Sequence record: KP064094
Reading direction: 5' to 3' (one strand)
From: Escherichia phage CAjan
Length of the DNA: 59,670 nucleotides
Shown: in pieces, positions 8,719 to 18,276 of the stretch
How positions within the stretch are numbered: the stretch's first letter is position 1
How the letters are laid out: every line of letters starts with the position of its first letter
The notes under the pieces: model-generated
What the model was told of the DNA's origin: nothing
Databases searched by the model: none
What the model saw: only the letters and a program-made list of their open reading frames with translations
Translations under genes and position numbers: made by a program

Positions 8719-9642
8719 ATGGCTACAGGTTCACGTTATTCGTGTTACTACGTCAAAGAAGATGTAAGCAACACTACGCCAGCGAGTGCGAAGTTTACTC
8801 CGTTCCGTGTGACCAGCTCCGGTCTGGACATTAATATTGCAACGCTGGAATCTGAAGAACTGCGCGATGACGCTGAAACTGCGGACTTCCGCCTCGGTGC
8901 TCGCAGTGTTGAAGGTACAGTAACGGGCGAAATGTCCTTCGGCACCTTCGATGATCTTATTGCTGCTGCACTTCGTGGGGAGTGGCAAGACAACGTCCTT
9001 AAAGGCGGTATTATCCGTCAGTCATTTACTTTCGTAGACTATAACGCAGATCTACCGTCAGGTAAATATACAATTTATCGCGGTTGCGAAGTTAATAGCA
9101 TGACTTTCTCATTGTCTGCGGAAAACATGACCACAGTGGAATTCGGTATTGTTGGTCGCTCAATGGAAATTGCGGAATCGCTCCCATCTGGTGCAACTAT
9201 CAAAGAGCGTACGACTACTTCACCGATGGATGGTTTCTCCGGTCGCTTGCTGGAAAACGACGAAGAAATCAGCGTTATTACTGAAATCGGTCTTACCGTT
9301 GAAAACGATATTGCACCGCGCTTTGTTGTTGGTTCTAAGTTCTCCATTGAACCGTCCGCTGGTCGTCGTGCGGTAACTGGTACAGCTAACGTGTACTTCC
9401 TGGATAACAAGCTGCGTATGAAGTATCTGGATGAAGTGGAAACTTCAATCAAGTTTGATCTGATTGACCCAAGCAATCCGGAACAAAAATACACTGTGGA
9501 AATTCCTCGCGTGAAATTCACTGAAGCTCCACGTCCTATTGACGGCGAAGGGGATATCATGCTTAATATGGGCTACCGCGGATTGCTGGACCCAACAACC
9601 GCAAGTTCCATCAAAATTACCCGCGTTCTAGCGGCAGCCTAA
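8719..9642 (+). CDS. major tail (tube) protein
   Basis: 307 aa, strong SD (AGAGAGGA), position before chaperone and tape measure genes. Confidence 0.6.
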   Translation: MATGSRYSCYYVKEDVSNTTPASAKFTPFRVTSSGLDINIATLESEELRDDAETADFRLGARSVEGTVTGEMSFGTFDDLIAAALRGEWQDNVLKGGIIRQSFTFVDYNADLPSGKYTIYRGCEVNSMTFSLSAENMTTVEFGIVGRSMEIAESLPSGATIKERTTTSPMDGFSGRLLENDEEISVITEIGLTVENDIAPRFVVGSKFSIEPSAGRRAVTGTANVYFLDNKLRMKYLDEVETSIKFDLIDPSNPEQKYTVEIPRVKFTEAPRPIDGEGDIMLNMGYRGLLDPTTASSIKITRVLAAA

Positions 9643-9651
9643 GGATAAGAA

Positions 9652-10059
9652 ATGACCGACACCAAAAAAGCCAAAGTTGCAGTAGCTAAAAGCTTCCGTG
9701 ATTTTAAAACTGTGAGCCGGGCCAACGACCCGGCAAACACTAAGCCTATGAATGTGGTTATTCCTGGTGTAGGCGACACTGGCGAAAAACTCTACATTCG
9801 TAGCCGCTACTGCACAGAGTACCGTGATGCTGAACTGAAAGCACAGCGTCAACTGTTGGCGCTTATGCAGGGTAAAGACGGTGAAGTAACGGATGCTATG
9901 AAGGAAGATATCCTTACCCGTTCACTGTGTAACCTTGTAGCAGGTTGGACTTTTGACGAGCCACCGACTGTTGACAACGTGTTTGAGTTCTTAACGGAGA
10001 ACCCAACTGTCCGAGAAGATCTTAACGTATTTGCCGCTAAAGATAGTAATTTTTTCTAA
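9652..10059 (+). CDS. tail assembly chaperone (G-like)
   Basis: 135 aa acidic protein directly upstream of tape measure; ends at a T_TTT_TTC slippery heptamer. Confidence 0.55.
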   Translation: MTDTKKAKVAVAKSFRDFKTVSRANDPANTKPMNVVIPGVGDTGEKLYIRSRYCTEYRDAELKAQRQLLALMQGKDGEVTDAMKEDILTRSLCNLVAGWTFDEPPTVDNVFEFLTENPTVREDLNVFAAKDSNFF

Positions 10060-10456
10060 AAGCGCGCAGACAGTTAATTGATAAGAAGATCCTCCAATGG
10101 GAACTAAATAGCAAAGTCCCCGGCGGGGGATCTTCTTTATTATCGCAACTGCAAAAGGTTGAGGAACAGTCTGGTAAGACGCCACCTAAGCTTAAAGAAT
10201 ATCGGGAAAAGGAAATACCGGTTTGCTTTGAATACCTGTCTACTTTATTTGATGACATTTACACTGGAGGGGATTTTAGTTATACAGAATTGCACAGCTA
10301 TCAGGTAACAATGGGCTTACATCTTCAACCGTACGAATGCGAAATACTGCGACAGCTATGGCTTGAAAAGCGCGTGTCTGAAGCTGAACAAAATGCTAAA
10401 CTCATGGAAAGTCAAATGCAAAATCAAAATAAAGGTAGAAGAAAAAGGAGAAGATA
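9652..10456 (+). CDS. tail assembly chaperone frameshift fusion (GT-like), predicted -1 frameshift
   Basis: The -1 frame is open from the slippery heptamer T_TTT_TTC (10050-10056) to TAA at 10455-10457, which overlaps the tape-measure ATG; matches the conserved G/GT arrangement. Confidence 0.45.
10050..10056 (+). other. candidate -1 ribosomal slippery heptamer TTTTTTC
   Basis: X_XXY_YYZ heptamer in the zero frame (aaT TTT TTC TAA) at the end of the chaperone ORF. Confidence 0.45.
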
Positions 10457-13400
10457 ATGGCCGAAACCGCTTCGCTAGTAATCAGAGTTGACGCGAGAGG
10501 GATTAGTACCGCGGACTCTATGTTGCGGAACTTAGCGCGTACAGGTGACACAGCGGAGCGGTCTGCTCAACGTGTCACATCCAGCTATAAAACATTGTCT
10601 AACACATCTAACGAACTTGCAACTGTCACAAGTCGTTTAGATGCTGCAATTGTAGGAATGATCAGCGTTGACACCATTAACCGTGTTATTTCGCTATCGG
10701 ACTCCTGGACTATCCTCACCAACAAACTTGAACTGGCTCGTACGGGTAATGAAACCGTTGCGGATGCACAGCAACGCGTGTTTGATATTGCCCAGCGGTC
10801 ACGTACAAGCTTGGAAGCAACTGCAACTCTATATTCCCGTCTCCAGCGTGCAATGAAGAATACTGGTATGACGGGTATGGAGCTTGGACGTATCACTGAA
10901 ACAATTAACAAAGCGATGATTGTTTCCGGTGCAACGTCACATGAAGCAAGCGCTGCTCTTATTCAGTTTTCGCAAGCAATGGCATCCGGTGTTTTGCGCG
11001 GGGATGAATTCCGTTCTGTTGCAGAACAAGCCCCGCGCTTAACTCAAATCATGTCCGATGCGTTAGGTGTTACCATTGGACAATTGCGTGAAATGGCTTA
11101 CAGCGGCAAGTTGAGCGCCGATGTGGTTATCAAATCGTTGTCTGGTGCTGCGGATACAATTGATAAAGAATTTAGCCGCACTATGCCAACGTTTAACCAG
11201 CAATGGACGGTTGCAACAAACAACTTGACTAAGTTCATGGGCGAATCCCAAAAGACTCAAGGTGCGGTTGCTGCATTGGGACAGACGTTTGTTGCGTTAT
11301 CCGAAAACTTAGGAACGGTTGTAACAGTTGGTTCAGCTTTAGCCACAGTAATTACCGCCCGTATCATTACGGCAATGCTTGCTAAGACTAAAGCGTCTAT
11401 AGCTGCTGCAAAAGCATCGCAGATGGAAGCTGCACAAACGGCGGCAACTACTGCGGTGATGCAAAGCTCTATTGGCGTTACCGCGCAGAAAGCGGCTGCG
11501 GATCGTGCTGCTTCTCTTGCAGCGTTACAGGTTGCTCGCGGGTCATTAGCGGTTGCTAAAGGTACGGCAGCGGAAGCAGGCGCACGTCTTGCGCTTATTA
11601 ACGCTACCCGTGCGCATTCTGCGGCAATTATGGCGGACGTACAAGCGCGGCAAGCGCTCAATGCTGCACTTAATGCAACTGTACCAGCCGCAAGCCGGGC
11701 AGCTACAGCAATGAGCGTGCTGCGCGGTGCTATGGGGTTAATTGGCGGTCCTGTTGGTGTAGCAATGCTGGCAGCGGGTGCAATTTACTCTTATAAAGCA
11801 TCGCTGGAAGCTGGTCGTGCGGAAAACAATCAGTTTGCGGATAGTGTTGATTCTGTACGCGAGAAACTGATGCAGATGACAGAAGCTCAGTTGGCAGCTA
11901 ACGCAGTTAAAGCTCGCGCAATCCTCCCTGAACTTGAAGAGCAAATGAAGCGGGAGCAAACTGCTCTTAAATCTGCAACGGAAACGCAGAAGTTCTATGA
12001 AGCACAATTAAAACGTCGTGCTGCGTCCGGTCGTGATACGGCCAGTGCTGAAAAGAATTTACAAATTGCAACGGATAACGTCAAGCTTGCTGCGGAACGT
12101 GCTGAAGAAGCTCAACGTCGTTACAACAATGTGCTTGAAATGACAAGTCCCGCTATAGAGAAAATAATCCCTCTAGCGCGTCAGCTTGCTGCGGATATGA
12201 AGGCTGTCCTTAACATTAAATCCGGTCCGTTGATTGACGAAAAAGTATTGGACCGCTTTAAAGGTCAACTAGGGGACGTTAACCGTGAGATTGATGTTAA
12301 CACGGTTAAGGGTGCTGGCAATGCTCGCCAAGCTGCAATCCTTAGTGGACTGTATCAGACGCTGGGCAAGGATGCTGATACATACGGAAGTCTTATTCGC
12401 AAAGTAGCTATGGGTCAGGACGTTAGCTCAGAGGCAACAAGCGAGTCCGCTAAAGAGCTTGTTAAATATGCTCAAGATTTAGCCCAAGCTCTTGGCAAAA
12501 ACTACGATCTTGAAGAAGCAGAGAGAAACCGGACTAAAGCTACAAAAGACGCTATTAAGGCGGATCAACAAAACGCTAAGGTTATTGACGATCTACGAAA
12601 CAAGCTTAACGAAGTAACCACAGGGGTTAAGGAAAACGCCAAAGCGAAAGCTCAAGCTGTGGCTTTAAACAAGCTCAATACGTCTGCAACTGCCGCGGAA
12701 AAAGCAGAAGTTGTTAGTCTTGCTGCTGCAATTTACGATGCAGAAGAAGCTCAAAAGAAACTGGACGAGCGTAAGAAGAATCGTAAGTTTGCTCAGGGTC
12801 TGTTAGATGAAGGTATGACAGACTATGAAAAAATCGCGTACGAGCAAAATACAAAGATTGCAGAGCTTAATGCAAAACAGCGAGCCGATGATTTAGCTTA
12901 CTATCAGCTTTACGAAGATGCTAAAACCCAAGTGCTGAAAAAAGCAAGCATGGAAAGGGAAAACCTGGATAAAGTTCTTATGAACCGAATGATATCCTTT
13001 TCTCAGGAATCCTTAGGCATTATAATGGATGGGCTGTCACAGGCTGTAAGCCAGCAGAACTTCTTTTATAAAGCTATGTTTGCAGCACAGAAAGCAATGC
13101 AAATCCCATCAATCCTTGCCAACACGGAAACGGCAGCATCTGCGGCGCTTGCATGGGGTACACAGCAAGGCGGTGCCACGATGGGTGCAACAATGGCGGC
13201 TATAGTGAAAACTATGGGTTACGCCTCGGCTGCTACTGTGGGTGGCTTAGCGATTGCTGGTATGGCTCACGACGGTATTGATAACGTTCCGCGTGAAGGT
13301 ACATGGTTGCTGGATAAGGGTGAACGTGTACTTAATGCTCCGTCTAATGACAAGTTAAATCGCTTCCTGGATAGCCAAGCTTCACAACAAGGTGGCGTGA

Positions 13401-13573
13401 ATATGTCCGGTGGTGTTAGCATTGTTCAGTATATCACGGTGCAAGGAAATGGCGATGCAGCACTCACACAAGCCATGCAAAAAGCGGCCCGTGATGGCGC
13501 TGAGCAGGGATATAATAAAGTTCTTAATGACTTTGCATCCCGAGGAACAATTCGTAGAACTGCAATGGGGTAA
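10457..13573 (+). CDS. tail tape measure protein
   Basis: 1038 aa, Ala/Gln-rich helical protein with hydrophobic Gly/Ala stretch near C-terminus; canonical position. Confidence 0.8.
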   Translation: MAETASLVIRVDARGISTADSMLRNLARTGDTAERSAQRVTSSYKTLSNTSNELATVTSRLDAAIVGMISVDTINRVISLSDSWTILTNKLELARTGNETVADAQQRVFDIAQRSRTSLEATATLYSRLQRAMKNTGMTGMELGRITETINKAMIVSGATSHEASAALIQFSQAMASGVLRGDEFRSVAEQAPRLTQIMSDALGVTIGQLREMAYSGKLSADVVIKSLSGAADTIDKEFSRTMPTFNQQWTVATNNLTKFMGESQKTQGAVAALGQTFVALSENLGTVVTVGSALATVITARIITAMLAKTKASIAAAKASQMEAAQTAATTAVMQSSIGVTAQKAAADRAASLAALQVARGSLAVAKGTAAEAGARLALINATRAHSAAIMADVQARQALNAALNATVPAASRAATAMSVLRGAMGLIGGPVGVAMLAAGAIYSYKASLEAGRAENNQFADSVDSVREKLMQMTEAQLAANAVKARAILPELEEQMKREQTALKSATETQKFYEAQLKRRAASGRDTASAEKNLQIATDNVKLAAERAEEAQRRYNNVLEMTSPAIEKIIPLARQLAADMKAVLNIKSGPLIDEKVLDRFKGQLGDVNREIDVNTVKGAGNARQAAILSGLYQTLGKDADTYGSLIRKVAMGQDVSSEATSESAKELVKYAQDLAQALGKNYDLEEAERNRTKATKDAIKADQQNAKVIDDLRNKLNEVTTGVKENAKAKAQAVALNKLNTSATAAEKAEVVSLAAAIYDAEEAQKKLDERKKNRKFAQGLLDEGMTDYEKIAYEQNTKIAELNAKQRADDLAYYQLYEDAKTQVLKKASMERENLDKVLMNRMISFSQESLGIIMDGLSQAVSQQNFFYKAMFAAQKAMQIPSILANTETAASAALAWGTQQGGATMGATMAAIVKTMGYASAATVGGLAIAGMAHDGIDNVPREGTWLLDKGERVLNAPSNDKLNRFLDSQASQQGGVNMSGGVSIVQYITVQGNGDAALTQAMQKAARDGAEQGYNKVLNDFASRGTIRRTAMG

Positions 13574-14745: not shown

Positions 14746-15154
14746 GTTACCGGGCTGGCAGACACGTTTATTAACCACAGTAAAGGAGTTGTCATCGACT
14801 CCTTTTTCTTGGGGTGAAAATGATTGCTGCACCTTCGCGGCTAAATGTGTTGATGCGCAATACGGCACAAATATCTACGAACAAGTTGCTGGAAAATATA
14901 GTACCGAGCTTGGAAGTAAAAAGTTCACTATTGAAAGAGTTGGAACCGCTTACCTTCCATTGTTATTGGATACTTACCTCAGCGAACGAGTTGACAAGAA
15001 CTATGCGCAAAGAGGCGATGTGGTTACATTTGAGGGAGCATTGGGCTTAACTGCTGGCATATTATGGACTGGATATGTATGGGCTATGGGTCCGAACGGT
15101 GTGGAAACATTCCCGCTTAATAAGATCAAAATTACGGATATTTGGAGGGTCTAA
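14720..15154 (+). CDS. tail tip assembly protein (hypothetical)
   Basis: about 144 aa from ATG 14720 (track ORF begins earlier); contains DCCTFAAKC Cys pair; lies in the lambda K/I position. Confidence 0.4.
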   Translation: MRQGSPMSKLPGWQTRLLTTVKELSSTPFSWGENDCCTFAAKCVDAQYGTNIYEQVAGKYSTELGSKKFTIERVGTAYLPLLLDTYLSERVDKNYAQRGDVVTFEGALGLTAGILWTGYVWAMGPNGVETFPLNKIKITDIWRV

Positions 15155-18100
15155 TGCCACCAGCAATAATTGGAGCAGCGATAGCTTTAGGTGCGTCGGC
15201 TGCTGCTGCGGCTAGTATTATTTCGGCTACTACCGCTCTCGTTATCGGTATTGCTGCAACCGCGGCAGGTGCTCTTTTGACTAAGACACCAAATATGAAC
15301 TTTGATGCTTACAAGGGGCAGCAAGAGCGTAAACAGGTTCTGCGTGCAGCTACAGCGTCACGTTCTGTTGTATATGGCACGACTGTAGCGTCCGGACTAT
15401 TAGCATTTGCGGAGGAAGAAGCTGGAGATCAAGATGAAGGTGAATGGATGCATCTTGTTGTCGTTCTTGCTAGTCATAAATTGGAAGGTATTGAAACGAT
15501 TTGGTTGGGTGATGACGGAATTGATTGGTTTGGTGAAAACGCTACTTGGGAGTTTCATAACGACCGTCAGACTGTTGACCCATTCATGTTAAAACATTGT
15601 CCTTCCTGGAAGGAGGATATGATTGGTAAGGGTATTGCGTGGCTACGTTTAAGCTTAAAGTTTGATGCTGAAAAATTCCCATCCGGTTTGCCAAACGTCA
15701 AGGTGTTGAAAAAGGGACGTAGAGTTTATGACCCACGTTCCGGTCAAACTGTCTTTAGCGATAACGCTGCTCTTGTTATTCTTGATTATTTCCGCACGTA
15801 TTTAAAGCGCAAGGACGAGAATATTAACTGGGACCAATTCAAGGAAGCTGCTAACATCTGCGACGAGTTTGTAACTAATGCGGATAACACTACGGAAAGA
15901 CGCTACCGCATTAACGGTGAGTTTGAAGTGGACGAAGCACCTGCTAAGATCCTTGATGCTATGCTTGAAGCTTGCGGCGGGGAACTAACCTATATTGGCG
16001 GTAAGCATGGTCTGTTAGTTGGTGCGTATTACGGTCCAGCCACCATGACTTTGGATGAAAGCTGCATTGCTGGGGATATCAAAATAATCCCTGAGACGTC
16101 TTATAAAGAGCGTACCAATACCATTACAGGTACATTCGTCGACCCGAAGCAAACATACGCTGAAGCAGATTTCCCTCCAGTTGTGGTTAAGGAATGGGTG
16201 GAAAAAGATGGCGGTGAAATAACGCAAGACATGGATTTCCGCTTTGTTACAAGTGAATATCAAGCTCAACGTCTTGCTAATATTATTTTACGTCGTAAGC
16301 GTGTTGGTCGAACAATTGAAGTGCCGTGTAACATGAAGGGGTATAAATTCCGCCCCGGCATGTATGTCAACGTAACCATTACAAATATCGGAATGAAAAA
16401 CGTTGAGATGCGCGTTACTAAATGGTCATTCGATCCTAAAGGTGGGATTAATCTTGTTCTTCGTCAAGACTTCCTGGAAATGTGGGACGACGCTATTGGT
16501 AAACCAATGGAGCGCCCGGATCTGGTAGACCTTCCGTCTGGTGCTATTGCTCAACCGCAAAACCTTCAGTATCAGGTATTGCAGATTAGCGATGTTGTGC
16601 AGGGTGTTTTAACGTGGAGCAATATTGGACAGGTGGCATATAACCGCGTAGCCGTGCGACAGGGAGGTACAACGGTTTGGACCGCACAAGTCCCTGGCCA
16701 AAACGTTCGCGTTACTGGGCTGCTGCGTGGCGCGTATACAGCGCATGTTCAAGCGGTAGCTTATAGCGGGGCAATATCGCCGGAAGCATATCTTCAATTT
16801 AATATTCAGGCTCCGCCACCACCAACATCTGTTGAAGTGCAACAGGGTTACTTTGCTATAAGTTTGATCCCAAAATCTGCGGATATTGCGAACGTTAGCA
16901 CACAATATGATTTCTGGACGTCCGGTGAAACAAGGTTGTCTTCCGTGTCTACAGACGTTGTTGAGCGTGAAGCAACTCGTAAAGGTATGGGCACAACCTG
17001 GACTTCGGAAGGTTTGAAGAATGACCACACTTATTACTGGTATGTGCGCACTATTAACGCTTTCGGATCTTCCGCATTTGTAGAAGTAGCTGCATTGTGC
17101 TTTACGACAGCTACAGATTTGATGCCACAAATTGATTCTGAGTTTAAGAAGACGGAGACTTACAAAGAGCTTACTACTGAAATCACAGGCGTTAAAGATG
17201 GAGTTACTCAGCTTAGCCAAACTGTGGTAGAAACTGAACAGCGTTTAAGTCAAAGCGTTAGCAATGTTCAACAAAGCGTTATCACTTTGGATGGTGTTGT
17301 TCAGGATCAGGGCGTTACCATTAACGAACAAGGACAGCTCATTGATGCACAGGGTAAGTTGATTGACACTCAAGGTAAGACTATTGAAACGGTTAGCGCG
17401 ACCGTGCAGGAGACAAGTAAAGCAGTTGTAGATCTGGAAGGTAATGTTAACGCTCAATGGGGTGCTAAAGTACAGGTAGATAGTAAAGGGCAAAAATACG
17501 TTGCTGGTATGCAGTTAGGTATGGAAGGGTCCGGTGGAGCTGTTCAGTCTTACTTCATGGTAAGCGCTAACAACTTTGCTATCTATAACCCGACAAATAG
17601 CGTAGCAGAACTAGCATTTGCTGTTAAGAACGGTCAAGTGTTCATGAAGGCTGCGTTTATTGAAAATGGTACTATTGACAGCGCTAAAATTTCAAATCAA
17701 ATTCAGTCAACAAACTACGCAAGCAATAGCGCGGGTTGGATGATTAACAAGAATGGTAGCGCTCAGTTTAACAACGTAACGATAAGAGGTACTGTATACG
17801 CTAGCAACGGATCTTTCACAGGCACAGTGAACGCAACAAGCGGTAAATTCAAGGGTACTGTGGAAGCCACCAGTTTTGTGGGTGATGTTGCGAATATGTG
17901 TGTCATTGCTGAGTCTGCAATACCAAACACACAAACTACAAGTTCAAGAACCTGGACAAAAACTTTCAAAGACTCATCTGGTTCAACATTATCTAAAGAC
18001 TTTGTGTTGCTATTAAGTTATAGTTTAACCGCATATACATCAAATCAGGCGAGTCGTATAATTGTGACTGCTAACATAGGGGGGACATCAATTACAAGGA

Positions 18101-18276
18101 GGATTGAGCGAGCTGCCAATGGACCTGCGATGGATGTAACCATACCTTTAGCAGTGAAAGGAAAGACAGCGTCGAGCGTAACAATAAGCGTTAAGGAGGA
18201 GTATACGAACGTCTATGGGAGCTACTTGCGCCCGTCTGTAATATTAATGACTCGCGGAACTGGTAGTTGGTCGTAA
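15154..18276 (+). CDS. host specificity protein, lambda J-like central tail fiber
   Basis: about 1040 aa from ATG 15154 (track start 15142 is TTG); central region resembles the lambda J fibronectin-like segment (YYWYVRTINAFGSSAFVEV, KYVAGMQLGMEGSGG...FMVSANNFAIYNP). Confidence 0.75.
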   Translation: MPPAIIGAAIALGASAAAAASIISATTALVIGIAATAAGALLTKTPNMNFDAYKGQQERKQVLRAATASRSVVYGTTVASGLLAFAEEEAGDQDEGEWMHLVVVLASHKLEGIETIWLGDDGIDWFGENATWEFHNDRQTVDPFMLKHCPSWKEDMIGKGIAWLRLSLKFDAEKFPSGLPNVKVLKKGRRVYDPRSGQTVFSDNAALVILDYFRTYLKRKDENINWDQFKEAANICDEFVTNADNTTERRYRINGEFEVDEAPAKILDAMLEACGGELTYIGGKHGLLVGAYYGPATMTLDESCIAGDIKIIPETSYKERTNTITGTFVDPKQTYAEADFPPVVVKEWVEKDGGEITQDMDFRFVTSEYQAQRLANIILRRKRVGRTIEVPCNMKGYKFRPGMYVNVTITNIGMKNVEMRVTKWSFDPKGGINLVLRQDFLEMWDDAIGKPMERPDLVDLPSGAIAQPQNLQYQVLQISDVVQGVLTWSNIGQVAYNRVAVRQGGTTVWTAQVPGQNVRVTGLLRGAYTAHVQAVAYSGAISPEAYLQFNIQAPPPPTSVEVQQGYFAISLIPKSADIANVSTQYDFWTSGETRLSSVSTDVVEREATRKGMGTTWTSEGLKNDHTYYWYVRTINAFGSSAFVEVAALCFTTATDLMPQIDSEFKKTETYKELTTEITGVKDGVTQLSQTVVETEQRLSQSVSNVQQSVITLDGVVQDQGVTINEQGQLIDAQGKLIDTQGKTIETVSATVQETSKAVVDLEGNVNAQWGAKVQVDSKGQKYVAGMQLGMEGSGGAVQSYFMVSANNFAIYNPTNSVAELAFAVKNGQVFMKAAFIENGTIDSAKISNQIQSTNYASNSAGWMINKNGSAQFNNVTIRGTVYASNGSFTGTVNATSGKFKGTVEATSFVGDVANMCVIAESAIPNTQTTSSRTWTKTFKDSSGSTLSKDFVLLLSYSLTAYTSNQASRIIVTANIGGTSITRRIERAANGPAMDVTIPLAVKGKTASSVTISVKEEYTNVYGSYLRPSVILMTRGTGSWS

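What the first reader, a model, noticed from the sequence alone, without database searches (positions are those of the whole stretch)
9652..10456. Programmed -1 frameshift producing a G/GT-type tail assembly chaperone
The chaperone ORF ends ...AAT TTT TTC TAA, giving the slippery heptamer T_TTT_TTC at 10050-10056. I traced the -1 frame from there: it stays open for about 134 codons and stops at TAA 10455-10457, overlapping the tape-measure ATG. This is the conserved lambda G/GT arrangement. An inverted repeat (GAAGATCCTCC...GGGGGATCTTC, 10083-10136) lies about 27 nt downstream.
Basis: seen in the sequence. Interest (0 to 1): 0.55.

Follow-up and report, generated by a model that had tools for sequence, protein, structure and literature searches.

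The report
Known tail-chaperone frameshift in a Seurat-like phage
This is the usual programmed -1 ribosomal frameshift that lets a long-tailed phage make a short and a long version of its tail assembly chaperone; it is real on all sequence evidence, but it is already annotated in near-identical phages, so it is ordinary.

Summary
ORF G (9652-10059, 135 aa) ends AAT TTT TTC TAA. The heptamer T_TTT_TTC lies at 10050-10056 in the correct phase. The -1 frame opens exactly at 10050 and runs to TAA 10455-10457, which overlaps the tape-measure ATG at 10457. The predicted fusion is 268 aa.

The -1 segment is coding. Its substitutions fall on -1-frame third positions (36 of 49), it matches Pfam PF23812 (tail assembly chaperone), and no start codon occurs in its first 78 codons. 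All 35 related sequences examined (GenBank records and IMG/VR contigs, down to about 24% identity, including GC-rich Xanthomonas and Pseudomonas phages) keep TTTTTTC in phase at the homologous Phe-Phe junction.

The window is a Seuratvirus, 98.6% identical to phage slur01. The GenBank records of phages Seurat and SA80RD already carry the joined CDS with "ribosomal slippage". It works like lambda G/GT but shows no sequence homology to lambda gpG or gpT.

The inverted repeat is a real, stable hairpin (10083-10137). It starts 26 nt after the heptamer, too far for a canonical stimulator, and its role is unknown. No fusion protein has been detected experimentally for this family as far as I found.

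Verdict: already known, low interest.

The parts
8719..9642 (+). Tail tube (major tail) protein gene, 307 aa. It is the upstream neighbour expected for a G/GT pair.
   Evidence: Pfam PF18906 Phage_tube_2, E 3.8e-41; ORF list.
9652..10059 (+). G: the tail assembly (tape measure) chaperone, 135 aa, made by standard decoding. An SD-like AAGGA lies at 9641-9645.
   Evidence: phrog_313 'Tail assembly chaperone', E 5e-12, on residues 41-143. Annotated as tape measure chaperone in Seurat, SA80RD and the BASEL phages.
10044..10049 (+). TAG and TAA stops in the -1 frame immediately 5' of the heptamer. They confine any -1 shift to the heptamer itself.
   Evidence: Translation of the -1 frame; frame boundaries.
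10050..10056 (+). Slippery heptamer T_TTT_TTC (Phe134-Phe135). It is the proposed site of tandem -1 slippage of tRNA-Phe.
   Evidence: In phase in 35 of 35 related sequences. F134 and F135 are invariant in alignment A1. All-pyrimidine UUY motifs are frameshift-prone in E. coli (PMC4066793).
10057..10059 (+). The 0-frame TAA stop of G, directly abutting the heptamer.
   Evidence: More distant relatives have this stop 39-48 nt further on, so adjacency is not a family requirement.
10056..10457 (+). T segment: 133 codons read in the -1 frame after the shift (CTA AAA GCG ...), ending at TAA 10455-10457. Together with G it gives GT = join(9652..10056,10056..10457), 268 aa.
   Evidence: Pfam PF23812 Phage_TAC_18, E 5.9e-9, on fusion residues 170-239. 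The full-length fusion matches phrog_569, E 2e-77. Variable columns fall 7/6/36 at -1-frame codon positions 1/2/3. The first in-frame ATG/GTG/TTG is at T codon 79 and has no SD.
10083..10137 (+). Stable hairpin inside the T coding sequence: a 13-bp stem (10083-10095 with 10125-10137) and a structured 29-nt loop. It begins 26 nt after the heptamer. Its role is unknown.
   Evidence: MFE -33.7 kcal/mol, z -3.7 against dinucleotide shuffles. Hairpin alone -27.3 kcal/mol; pair probabilities are 0.99 or more for 11 of the 13 stem pairs, and 0.34 and 0.73 for the two basal A-U pairs. More stable than all 300 synonymous recodings. Hairpins at a similar position but in a different register occur in the 9g, K9PH25C2 and Vid5 clades.
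10457..13573 (+). Tape measure protein gene, 1038 aa. Its ATG overlaps the T stop (TAATG), and AGGAG at 10446-10450 serves as its SD.
   Evidence: Pfam PF20155 TMP_3, E 6.5e-60; phrog_339; sequence.

Best explanation
This is a programmed -1 ribosomal frameshift in the tail assembly chaperone gene of a Seuratvirus (Queuovirinae) siphophage.

Ribosomes translating G reach UUU(10051-53)-UUC(10054-56) with tRNA-Phe in the P and A sites. Most then read UAA(10057-59) and release the 135-aa G protein. A minority slip back one nucleotide onto UUU(10050-52)-UUU(10053-55), read CUA(10056-58) next, and continue for 133 codons to UAA 10455-57. The product is the 268-aa fusion GT (...AAKDSNFF-LKARRQ...).

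By analogy with lambda, G and the G part of GT coat the tape measure protein. The T part recruits the tail tube protein, so that the tube polymerises around the tape measure. Neither protein ends up in the virion.

Shown here: the frames, the heptamer and its phase, the coding constraint on the T segment in the -1 frame, family membership of the T segment, and conservation in 35 related sequences.

Inferred: that slippage really happens, its frequency (probably a few percent), and the protein functions.
For: 1. Anatomy. G ends AAT TTT TTC TAA. The -1 frame opens exactly at the heptamer and closes on the tape-measure ATG.

2. Position. The pair lies between the tail tube gene and the tape measure gene.

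3. The T segment is coding in the -1 frame. None of 20,000 shuffles is stop-free. Among 9 Seuratvirus sequences, variable columns fall 7/6/36 at -1-frame codon positions 1/2/3, and 3/5/26 in the part upstream of the internal ATG 10311. Window versus Skure gives synonymous:nonsynonymous codon changes of 21:8 in the -1 frame, against 2:29 and 0:30 in the other two frames.

4. The T segment cannot be made on its own. There is no ATG/GTG/TTG in its first 78 codons and no SD before the later ones. The PF23812 domain spans T codons 35-104.

5. Family. PF23812 Phage_TAC_18 is hit by the T part of all 12 reconstructed fusions. The fusion matches phrog_569 end to end, E 2e-77, and the G part matches phrog_313 'Tail assembly chaperone'.

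6. Comparative evidence. 30 of 30 sources plus 5 of 5 more distant phages keep TTTTTTC with its first T at codon position 3 at the homologous Phe-Phe junction. These span Seuratvirus, Nonagvirus, Vid5, PSTCR4, PMBT28, PaMx11, ZQG1, Xp12, AAT-1, JeffCo, Bhz54 and pVco-14, at 24-99% protein identity. The alignment runs gaplessly through the junction. The preceding codon varies (AAT, CTT, GAT, CAT and others) but always ends in T.

7. Motif quality. UUN A-site codons and all-pyrimidine X/Z motifs are frameshift-prone in E. coli (PMC4066793, section 17).

8. Precedent. G-T frameshifting is widespread among long-tailed phages (PMC5009743).
Against: I found no protein-level evidence for GT in this phage family. 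The Seurat genome paper only lists a 'tape measure chaperone', and full-text searches found no paper naming TTTTTTC as a phage tail-chaperone shift site.

No stimulatory structure lies at the canonical 5-9 nt spacing; the hairpin starts 26 nt downstream.

Conservation of the heptamer is partly confounded with conservation of the encoded Phe-Phe dipeptide.

Several GenBank records instead call a short separate ORF in the T segment.
Confidence: 0.92

Rival explanations
1. The same GT fusion is made, but by single-tRNA slippage at a 'shifty stop'. With tRNA-Phe on UUC (10054-56) in the P site and the slowly decoded UAA in the A site, the P-site tRNA alone slips to UUU (10053-55), and CUA is read next.
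For: The 0-frame stop directly abuts the heptamer in Seuratvirus, Nonagvirus and the K9PH25C2-like phages. From my own knowledge, stop codons 3' of shift sites are known to enhance shifting in E. coli (Weiss et al. 1987). The product would be identical.
Against: In PSTCR4, PMBT28, VLCpiS6a, PaMx11, ZQG1, Xp12, AAT-1, JeffCo and Bhz54 the 0-frame stop is tens of nucleotides downstream, yet the full heptamer, including its first T, is kept. That pattern argues for two-tRNA slippage as the common mechanism of the family.
Confidence: 0.12
2. Transcriptional slippage. RNA polymerase adds one extra U in the T6 run, and the edited mRNA is then read normally into the T frame.
For: The site is a homopolymeric T6 run (T7 in 9g, PaMx11, Xp12 and others). 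Inserting one nucleotide would give the same fusion. Transcriptional slippage is a recognised route to such products (PMC5009743).
Against: From my own knowledge, bacterial RNA polymerase slippage needs longer runs, roughly 8-9 A or T. The run is always in the X_XXY_YYZ phase and always followed by C in 35 of 35 sequences, including those whose frames overlap by 52-274 nt and where phase would not matter for polymerase slippage.
Confidence: 0.04
3. There is no recoding. The T segment is expressed separately from an internal start (ATG 10311 or TTG 10290), as annotated in the BASEL phages, CSP1C and Skure.
For: Several GenBank records annotate such short ORFs.
Against: These starts have no SD and are not conserved; in 9g the first in-frame ATG is at T codon 117. 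The 78 codons upstream of the first start show third-position-biased substitution, 3/5/26. They are conserved at protein level down to 24% identity. They also contain more than half of the PF23812 domain.
Confidence: 0.02
4. Artefact or decay. A sequencing error or a recent frameshift mutation split one gene in two.
For: Homopolymer runs are error-prone in sequencing.
Against: The same heptamer and the same two-frame arrangement occur in 34 independently sequenced close relatives and in every distant relative examined.
Confidence: 0.01

Closest known systems
Tape measure chaperone G/GT of Escherichia phage Seurat (KM236243, CPT_Seurat13/14) and of vB_EcoS_SA80RD (OL960575, SA80RD_14/15)
   Same: Same genus. 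The DNA of this region is 96.6-98.7% identical. The heptamer, frames and stops are identical. The GT protein differs by one residue in Seurat. Both records annotate the joined CDS with 'ribosomal slippage'.
   Different: Essentially nothing. The window is another isolate or strain of the same kind of phage.
Bacteriophage lambda gpG/gpGT (Levin, Hendrix and Casjens 1993; Xu, Hendrix and Duda 2004, 2013, 2014)
   Same: Gene order tube - G - T - tape measure. A -1 shift near the end of G on an in-phase X_XXY_YYZ heptamer. G is about 135-140 aa and GT about 270-280 aa. T has no start of its own (PMC5009743).
   Different: No detectable sequence homology: hhalign probability 1.6%, and lambda matches PF06894 and PF06223 rather than PF23812. 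The lambda heptamer is G_GGA_AAG (tRNA-Gly and tRNA-Lys), 15 nt before the G stop. Here the heptamer is T_TTT_TTC (two tRNA-Phe) and abuts the stop.
Phage P2 E/E+E' tail chaperone frameshift (Christie et al. 2002; recalled from memory, together with PMC5009743)
   Same: A T-rich heptamer in a tail chaperone gene upstream of the tape measure gene (as I recall, T_TTT_TTG), with -1 shifting.
   Different: P2 is a myovirus and the protein family is unrelated. P2 frameshifting is reported to be 2- to 3-fold more efficient than lambda's. The efficiency here is unknown.
Pfam PF23812 (Phage_TAC_18) chaperones of Nonagvirus 9g, Pantoea phage Vid5, and Pseudomonas phages PaMx11 and AAT-1
   Same: The G and T parts are homologous, and the T_TTT_TTC heptamer is identical at the same Phe-Phe junction.
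   Different: Protein identity is 24-41%. In the more distant members the 0-frame stop is 39-48 nt downstream. The Pseudomonas phages PaMx11 and ZQG1 have a hairpin 5-6 nt after the heptamer rather than about 26 nt.

Membership tests
G/GT-type tail assembly chaperone frameshift arrangement (Xu, Hendrix and Duda 2004) | Two overlapping ORFs located between the major tail (tube) gene and the tape measure gene | tested here: met
   8719-9642 matches Phage_tube_2 and 10457-13573 matches TMP_3. G and T fill the gap between them.
G/GT-type tail assembly chaperone frameshift arrangement (Xu, Hendrix and Duda 2004) | A slippery sequence in the frame overlap, in the phase that allows the tRNAs to re-pair in the new frame | tested here: met
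   T_TTT_TTC at 10050-10056 with its first T at codon position 3. The overlap is only 10 nt.
G/GT-type tail assembly chaperone frameshift arrangement (Xu, Hendrix and Duda 2004) | The downstream ORF has no initiation signals of its own but is under coding constraint from the shift site onward | tested here: met
   No start codon in the first 78 codons and no SD. Substitutions are biased to the third codon position from the heptamer onward.
G/GT-type tail assembly chaperone frameshift arrangement (Xu, Hendrix and Duda 2004) | The arrangement and the shift site are conserved among diverged relatives | tested here: met
   35 of 35 related sequences. The fusion alignment has no gap at the junction.
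G/GT-type tail assembly chaperone frameshift arrangement (Xu, Hendrix and Duda 2004) | Two protein products, G in excess over GT, both required for tail assembly and absent from virions | not testable with these tools
   Needs immunoblot or mass spectrometry, plus genetics. No such data were found for this family.
Lambda gpG and gpT sequence families (Pfam PF06894 Phage_TAC_2, PF06223 Phage_tail_T) | Significant sequence match to these profiles or to lambda gpGT | tested here: not met
   Neither family appears in the Pfam scan of the fusion. hhalign of A1 against lambda GT gives probability 1.6%. Lambda GT itself hits both families.
Pfam PF23812 Phage_TAC_18 (phage tail assembly chaperone) | Score above the gathering threshold | tested here: met
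   36.4 bits against a cut-off of 27, on fusion residues 170-239, which lie in the -1-frame T segment. All 12 relatives match, best E 6.6e-22.
PHROG 569 and PHROG 313 (phage tail chaperone families) | Significant profile match | tested here: met
   phrog_569 E 2e-77 over residues 1-268, although its label 'tail length tape measure protein' is a misnomer. phrog_313 'Tail assembly chaperone' E 5e-12 on the G part.
Canonical bipartite -1 PRF signal (heptamer plus a stem-loop or pseudoknot 5-9 nt downstream, as in dnaX or IS911) | A stimulatory RNA structure beginning about 5-9 nt 3' of the heptamer | tested here: not met
   The only strong structure starts 26 nt downstream (22 nt if the weak A-U base is counted). 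No SD-like motif lies in the 20 nt upstream. From my own knowledge, lambda G/GT does not need a stimulator either.
Tail assembly chaperone fold (spiral-forming TACs, Pell et al. 2013; recalled from memory) | Structural similarity of G to solved TAC structures | tested here: inconclusive
   The single-sequence AlphaFold2 model has mean pLDDT 43 and is unusable. No homologues were returned from which to build an alignment. No PDB relative was found by sequence profile.

The most novel reading that the evidence does not exclude
The stable hairpin that begins 22-35 nt after the heptamer in four clades (Seuratvirus, Nonagvirus, K9PH25C2-like, Vid5) is a selected RNA element with a non-canonical role. 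In each clade it has a different sequence and register, and in each it is more stable than synonymous recodings. Possible roles: it could tune the G:GT ratio from an unusually long distance, for example by pausing ribosomes that have already shifted. Or it could protect the sparsely translated 400-nt T segment, and hence the downstream tape-measure message, from Rho-dependent termination or RNase attack.
Probability: 0.15. Interest if true: 0.4.

Novelty: already known. Interest (0 to 1): 0.1.

Why it matters
It matters mainly for annotation. The correct gene model is join(9652..10056,10056..10457). Many GenBank records of this genus instead call a short orphan ORF in the T segment, or label G as a 'tape measure protein'.

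One modest by-product: the whole PF23812 chaperone family appears to use a single invariant heptamer, T_TTT_TTC, at an invariant Phe-Phe junction. This holds across hosts from Escherichia to Xanthomonas and even in GC-rich genomes. That gives a simple rule for annotating this family and a clean set of natural variants for studying U-rich -1 shift sites in bacteria, since the stop is adjacent in some members and distant in others, and the hairpin is near in some and far in others. None of this changes what is understood about the mechanism.

Tried and rejected
1. The search for related loci with the 12-sequence alignment A1 failed because no stretch was conserved enough. The narrower alignment A2 gave 15 IMG/VR loci, mostly the same clades.

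2. The search for homologous proteins with the 268-aa fusion returned no hit at E <= 1e-3. This left no alignment for structure prediction and no test for naturally fused single-frame homologues.

3. AlphaFold2 on G alone gave pLDDT 43, which is unusable, so I ran no fold search.

4. A PDB profile search found only noise: a designed protein at E 0.003 and DNMT3 at E 0.02 or worse. NCBIfam gave nothing meaningful.

5. I considered the hairpin as a canonical stimulator and rejected this on spacing.

6. I considered the hairpin as an intrinsic terminator. The scan flags only a small inner CCCC/GGGG hairpin with a T-rich tail. The T-rich tail is absent in 9g and K9PH25C2, so I did not pursue it.

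7. I looked for pair-by-pair covariation of the hairpin across clades. RNAalifold finds no shared structure once Nonagvirus, K9PH25C2 and Vid5 are added (-4.5 kcal/mol), because the registers differ. Within Seuratvirus the arms hardly vary. Only the position of the hairpin is conserved, so no covariation is claimed.

8. The +1 frame is closed after 28 codons, at 10079-10081, which excludes a +1 shift.

9. Literature searches for TTTTTTC or UUUUUUC as a phage tail-chaperone shift site found nothing relevant.

Full report
OBSERVATION

ORF 9652-10059 encodes a 135-aa protein ending ...AAKDSNFF. Its last codons are AAT(10048-50) TTT(10051-53) TTC(10054-56) TAA(10057-59). TTTTTTC therefore lies at 10050-10056 with its first T at codon position 3, the phase required of an X_XXY_YYZ heptamer.

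In the -1 frame there are stops TAG and TAA at 10044-10049. That frame then runs open from 10050 to TAA 10455-10457, and the final A of this stop is the A of the tape-measure ATG (10457-10459). The two frames overlap by only 10 nt, which are the heptamer plus the G stop. Any -1 shift joining them must happen on the heptamer. The +1 frame closes at 10079-10081.

The reconstructed fusion is 135 + 133 = 268 aa.

Chance is not a plausible explanation. None of 20,000 composition-preserving shuffles of the 399-nt T segment is free of stops. TTTTTTC occurs only 12 times on both strands of the 59.7-kb window, against 21 expected.

WHAT THE WINDOW IS

The region is 98.6% identical to Escherichia phage slur01 and 93-98% identical to some 30 other Seuratvirus (Queuovirinae) genomes. 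Window coordinates coincide with those of several complete genomes opened at terS, so the window is probably a whole Seuratvirus genome.

Upstream of G lies the tail tube gene (8719-9642; Pfam Phage_tube_2, E 3.8e-41). Downstream lies the tape measure gene (10457-13573; Pfam TMP_3, E 6.5e-60). This is the canonical position of a tail assembly chaperone pair.

IS THE -1 SEGMENT A GENE, AND IS IT EXPRESSED ONLY AS A FUSION?

Four independent lines say yes.

1. Family membership. The -1-frame translation (fusion residues 170-239) matches Pfam PF23812 'Phage tail assembly chaperone' above the gathering threshold (36.4 against 27 bits). The whole 268-aa fusion matches phrog_569 end to end (E 2e-77). 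The G part matches phrog_313 'Tail assembly chaperone'.

2. Substitution pattern. Among nine distinct Seuratvirus sequences, the 49 variable columns of the T segment fall 7/6/36 on -1-frame codon positions 1/2/3. In the 255 nt that precede the internal ATG some records use as a start, the split is 3/5/26. Window versus Skure gives 21 synonymous and 8 nonsynonymous codon changes when read in the -1 frame, against 2:29 and 0:30 in the other two frames.

3. No independent start. The first ATG/GTG/TTG in the T frame is at codon 79 (TTG 10290) and has no Shine-Dalgarno motif. Candidate starts are not conserved among relatives. More than half of the PF23812 domain lies upstream of codon 79.

4. Continuity. 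Fusion proteins reconstructed in the same way from 12 phages align without a gap through the junction, with Phe134 and Phe135 invariant. All 12 hit PF23812 in their T part.

CONSERVATION OF THE SHIFT SITE

In the window plus 29 loci from GenBank and IMG/VR, an in-phase TTTTTTC lies at the junction of a 0-frame ORF of at least 100 codons and a -1-frame ORF of at least 90 codons. These loci cover Seuratvirus, Nonagvirus, K9PH25C2-like phages, Vid5, PSTCR4, PMBT28, VLCpiS6a, PaMx11 and ZQG1.

Five further distant relatives have it as well: Xanthomonas Xp12, Vibrio pVco-14, Pseudomonas AAT-1, Acinetobacter JeffCo and Stenotrophomonas Bhz54. Some of these are very GC-rich locally; Xp12 reads GCGCGCCCTTTTTTTCGCAGCC.

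The codon before the heptamer encodes different residues (Asn, Leu, Asp, His, Ser) but always ends in T. The Phe-Phe pair is always TTT TTC. At 24-40% protein identity, synonymous sites are saturated. I infer that this retention reflects selection on the nucleotide sequence and not only on the dipeptide.

In the distant members the 0-frame stop is 39-48 nt downstream of the heptamer and the frame overlap is 52-274 nt. The heptamer nevertheless keeps its phase there. This favours ribosomal tandem slippage over two alternatives: polymerase slippage, for which phase is irrelevant, and a mechanism dependent on the stop codon.

MECHANISM

The best-supported mechanism is tandem -1 slippage of two tRNA-Phe from UUU-UUC to UUU-UUU, followed by decoding of CUA and onward translation of T. 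Ribosomes that do not shift terminate at once on UAA.

Sharma et al. measured all 64 heptamers in E. coli. They found UUN A-site codons, all-pyrimidine ZZN codons, and motifs with homogeneous X and Z to be the more shift-prone classes (PMC4066793, section 17). U_UUU_UUC satisfies each of these rules.

The functional reading rests on the lambda work as reviewed in PMC5009743, not on anything tested here. In that reading, G and the G part of GT bind the tape measure protein, and the T domain recruits the tube protein. The G:GT ratio is about 30:1 in lambda, and neither protein is in the virion.

THE HAIRPIN

The inverted repeat is a real and stable hairpin.
- Its free energy is -27.3 kcal/mol, and pair probabilities are 0.99 or more for 11 of the 13 stem pairs; the two basal A-U pairs are 0.34 and 0.73.
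- The 104-nt context folds with z -3.7 against dinucleotide shuffles.
- It is more stable than all 300 synonymous recodings of the same peptide.
- It is among the most stable 70-nt windows between 8700 and 13600, though it ties with a few windows inside the tape measure gene.

Comparable hairpins, also more stable than their recodings, begin 28-35 nt after the heptamer in 9g, K9PH25C2 and Vid5. They differ in sequence and register, and RNAalifold finds no common structure across clades. Position is therefore conserved, but pair-by-pair covariation cannot be claimed. The recoding control used this window's codon usage, so it overstates z for the GC-richer phages.

A spacer of 22-26 nt places the stem well outside the mRNA entry channel when the heptamer is being decoded. 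From my own knowledge, canonical stimulators lie 5-9 nt away. I therefore do not accept the hairpin as the stimulator. Two Pseudomonas-phage relatives, PaMx11 and ZQG1, do have hairpins 5-6 nt after the heptamer. The role of the hairpin here is unknown.

COMPARISON WITH WHAT IS KNOWN

This works like lambda G/GT but does not belong to lambda's protein families. hhalign of the family profile against lambda GT gives probability 1.6%. Lambda GT hits PF06894 and PF06223, and neither appears for the window protein. The lambda heptamer, G_GGA_AAG, lies 15 nt before the G stop.

The exact feature is already on record. GenBank KM236243 (phage Seurat, the type species) annotates CPT_Seurat14 as a two-piece joined CDS and notes 'ribosomal slippage (10236)', which corresponds to window position 10053. 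OL960575 (SA80RD, 98% identical) does the same.

Other records are inconsistent. The BASEL phages and CSP1C call a 48-aa ORF from ATG 10311. Skure calls a TTG-initiated ORF. RefSeq re-annotations label G as 'tail length tape measure protein'.

WHAT IS NOT SHOWN

No protein-level evidence for GT in this family was found. Structural membership in the chaperone fold could not be tested. The single-sequence model was poor (pLDDT 43), the protein database returned no homologues, and there is no PDB relative by sequence.

VERDICT

The feature is a textbook kind of recoding and is already annotated in near-identical genomes, so interest is low. The family-wide invariance of T_TTT_TTC and the recurrent distant hairpin are the only points that go slightly beyond what the records state.

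Noticed in passing
window 10083-10137; L007 (9g), L008 (K9PH25C2) and L009 (Vid5), 28-35 nt after their heptamers: A stable hairpin recurs at roughly the same distance (22-35 nt) downstream of the shift site in four clades. Sequence and register differ between clades, and each hairpin is more stable than synonymous recodings (z -2.3 to -4.5). The distance is too great for a canonical frameshift stimulator, and the function is unknown.
   Followed up: partly
L012 (PaMx11) 922-946; L013 (ZQG1) 910-950: In the Pseudomonas and Stutzerimonas phage members of the same chaperone family, a hairpin starts only 5-6 nt after the T_TTT_TTC heptamer, which is the canonical stimulator geometry. The family therefore offers natural 'near' and 'far' hairpin variants around one invariant heptamer.
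   Followed up: partly
window 10030-10038 paired with 10061-10070: In a fold of naked RNA 10000-10260, the sequence just 3' of the stop (AGCGCGCAGA) pairs with TTTGCCGCT upstream, with most pairs at probability 0.9-1.0. This places the heptamer and the stop in a loop. GCGCGC is kept 6 nt after the heptamer in Seuratvirus, yong3 and Vid5 despite synonymous freedom. Its significance is unknown.
   Followed up: no
window 10290-10457 and 9652-10059; GenBank records MZ501071, PQ202980, MK672798, NC_028831, NC_027378: Annotation of this locus differs between public records. Some call a short separate ORF in the T segment from an internal ATG or TTG. RefSeq re-annotations name G 'tail length tape measure protein', and phrog_569, which models the GT fusion, carries the same misleading label.
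   Followed up: yes
whole window, both strands: TTTTTTC occurs 12 times against 21.4 (sd 4.5) expected from dinucleotide-preserving shuffles, and 99 of 100 shuffles have at least 12. This is a mild depletion, consistent with avoidance of slippery runs outside the programmed site.
   Followed up: no
window 15142-18276, compared with OL960575 15164-17803: The large tail fibre ORF after the distal tail genes is longer in the window (1044 aa from a TTG, by mechanical ORF calling) than its annotated counterpart in SA80RD (879 aa). This suggests a different receptor-binding C-terminal module.
   Followed up: no
protein database search: the search for homologous proteins returned no hit at all for the 268-aa fusion, although the G protein is present in about 30 GenBank phage records. 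The collection or its word index apparently does not cover these phage proteins.
   Followed up: no
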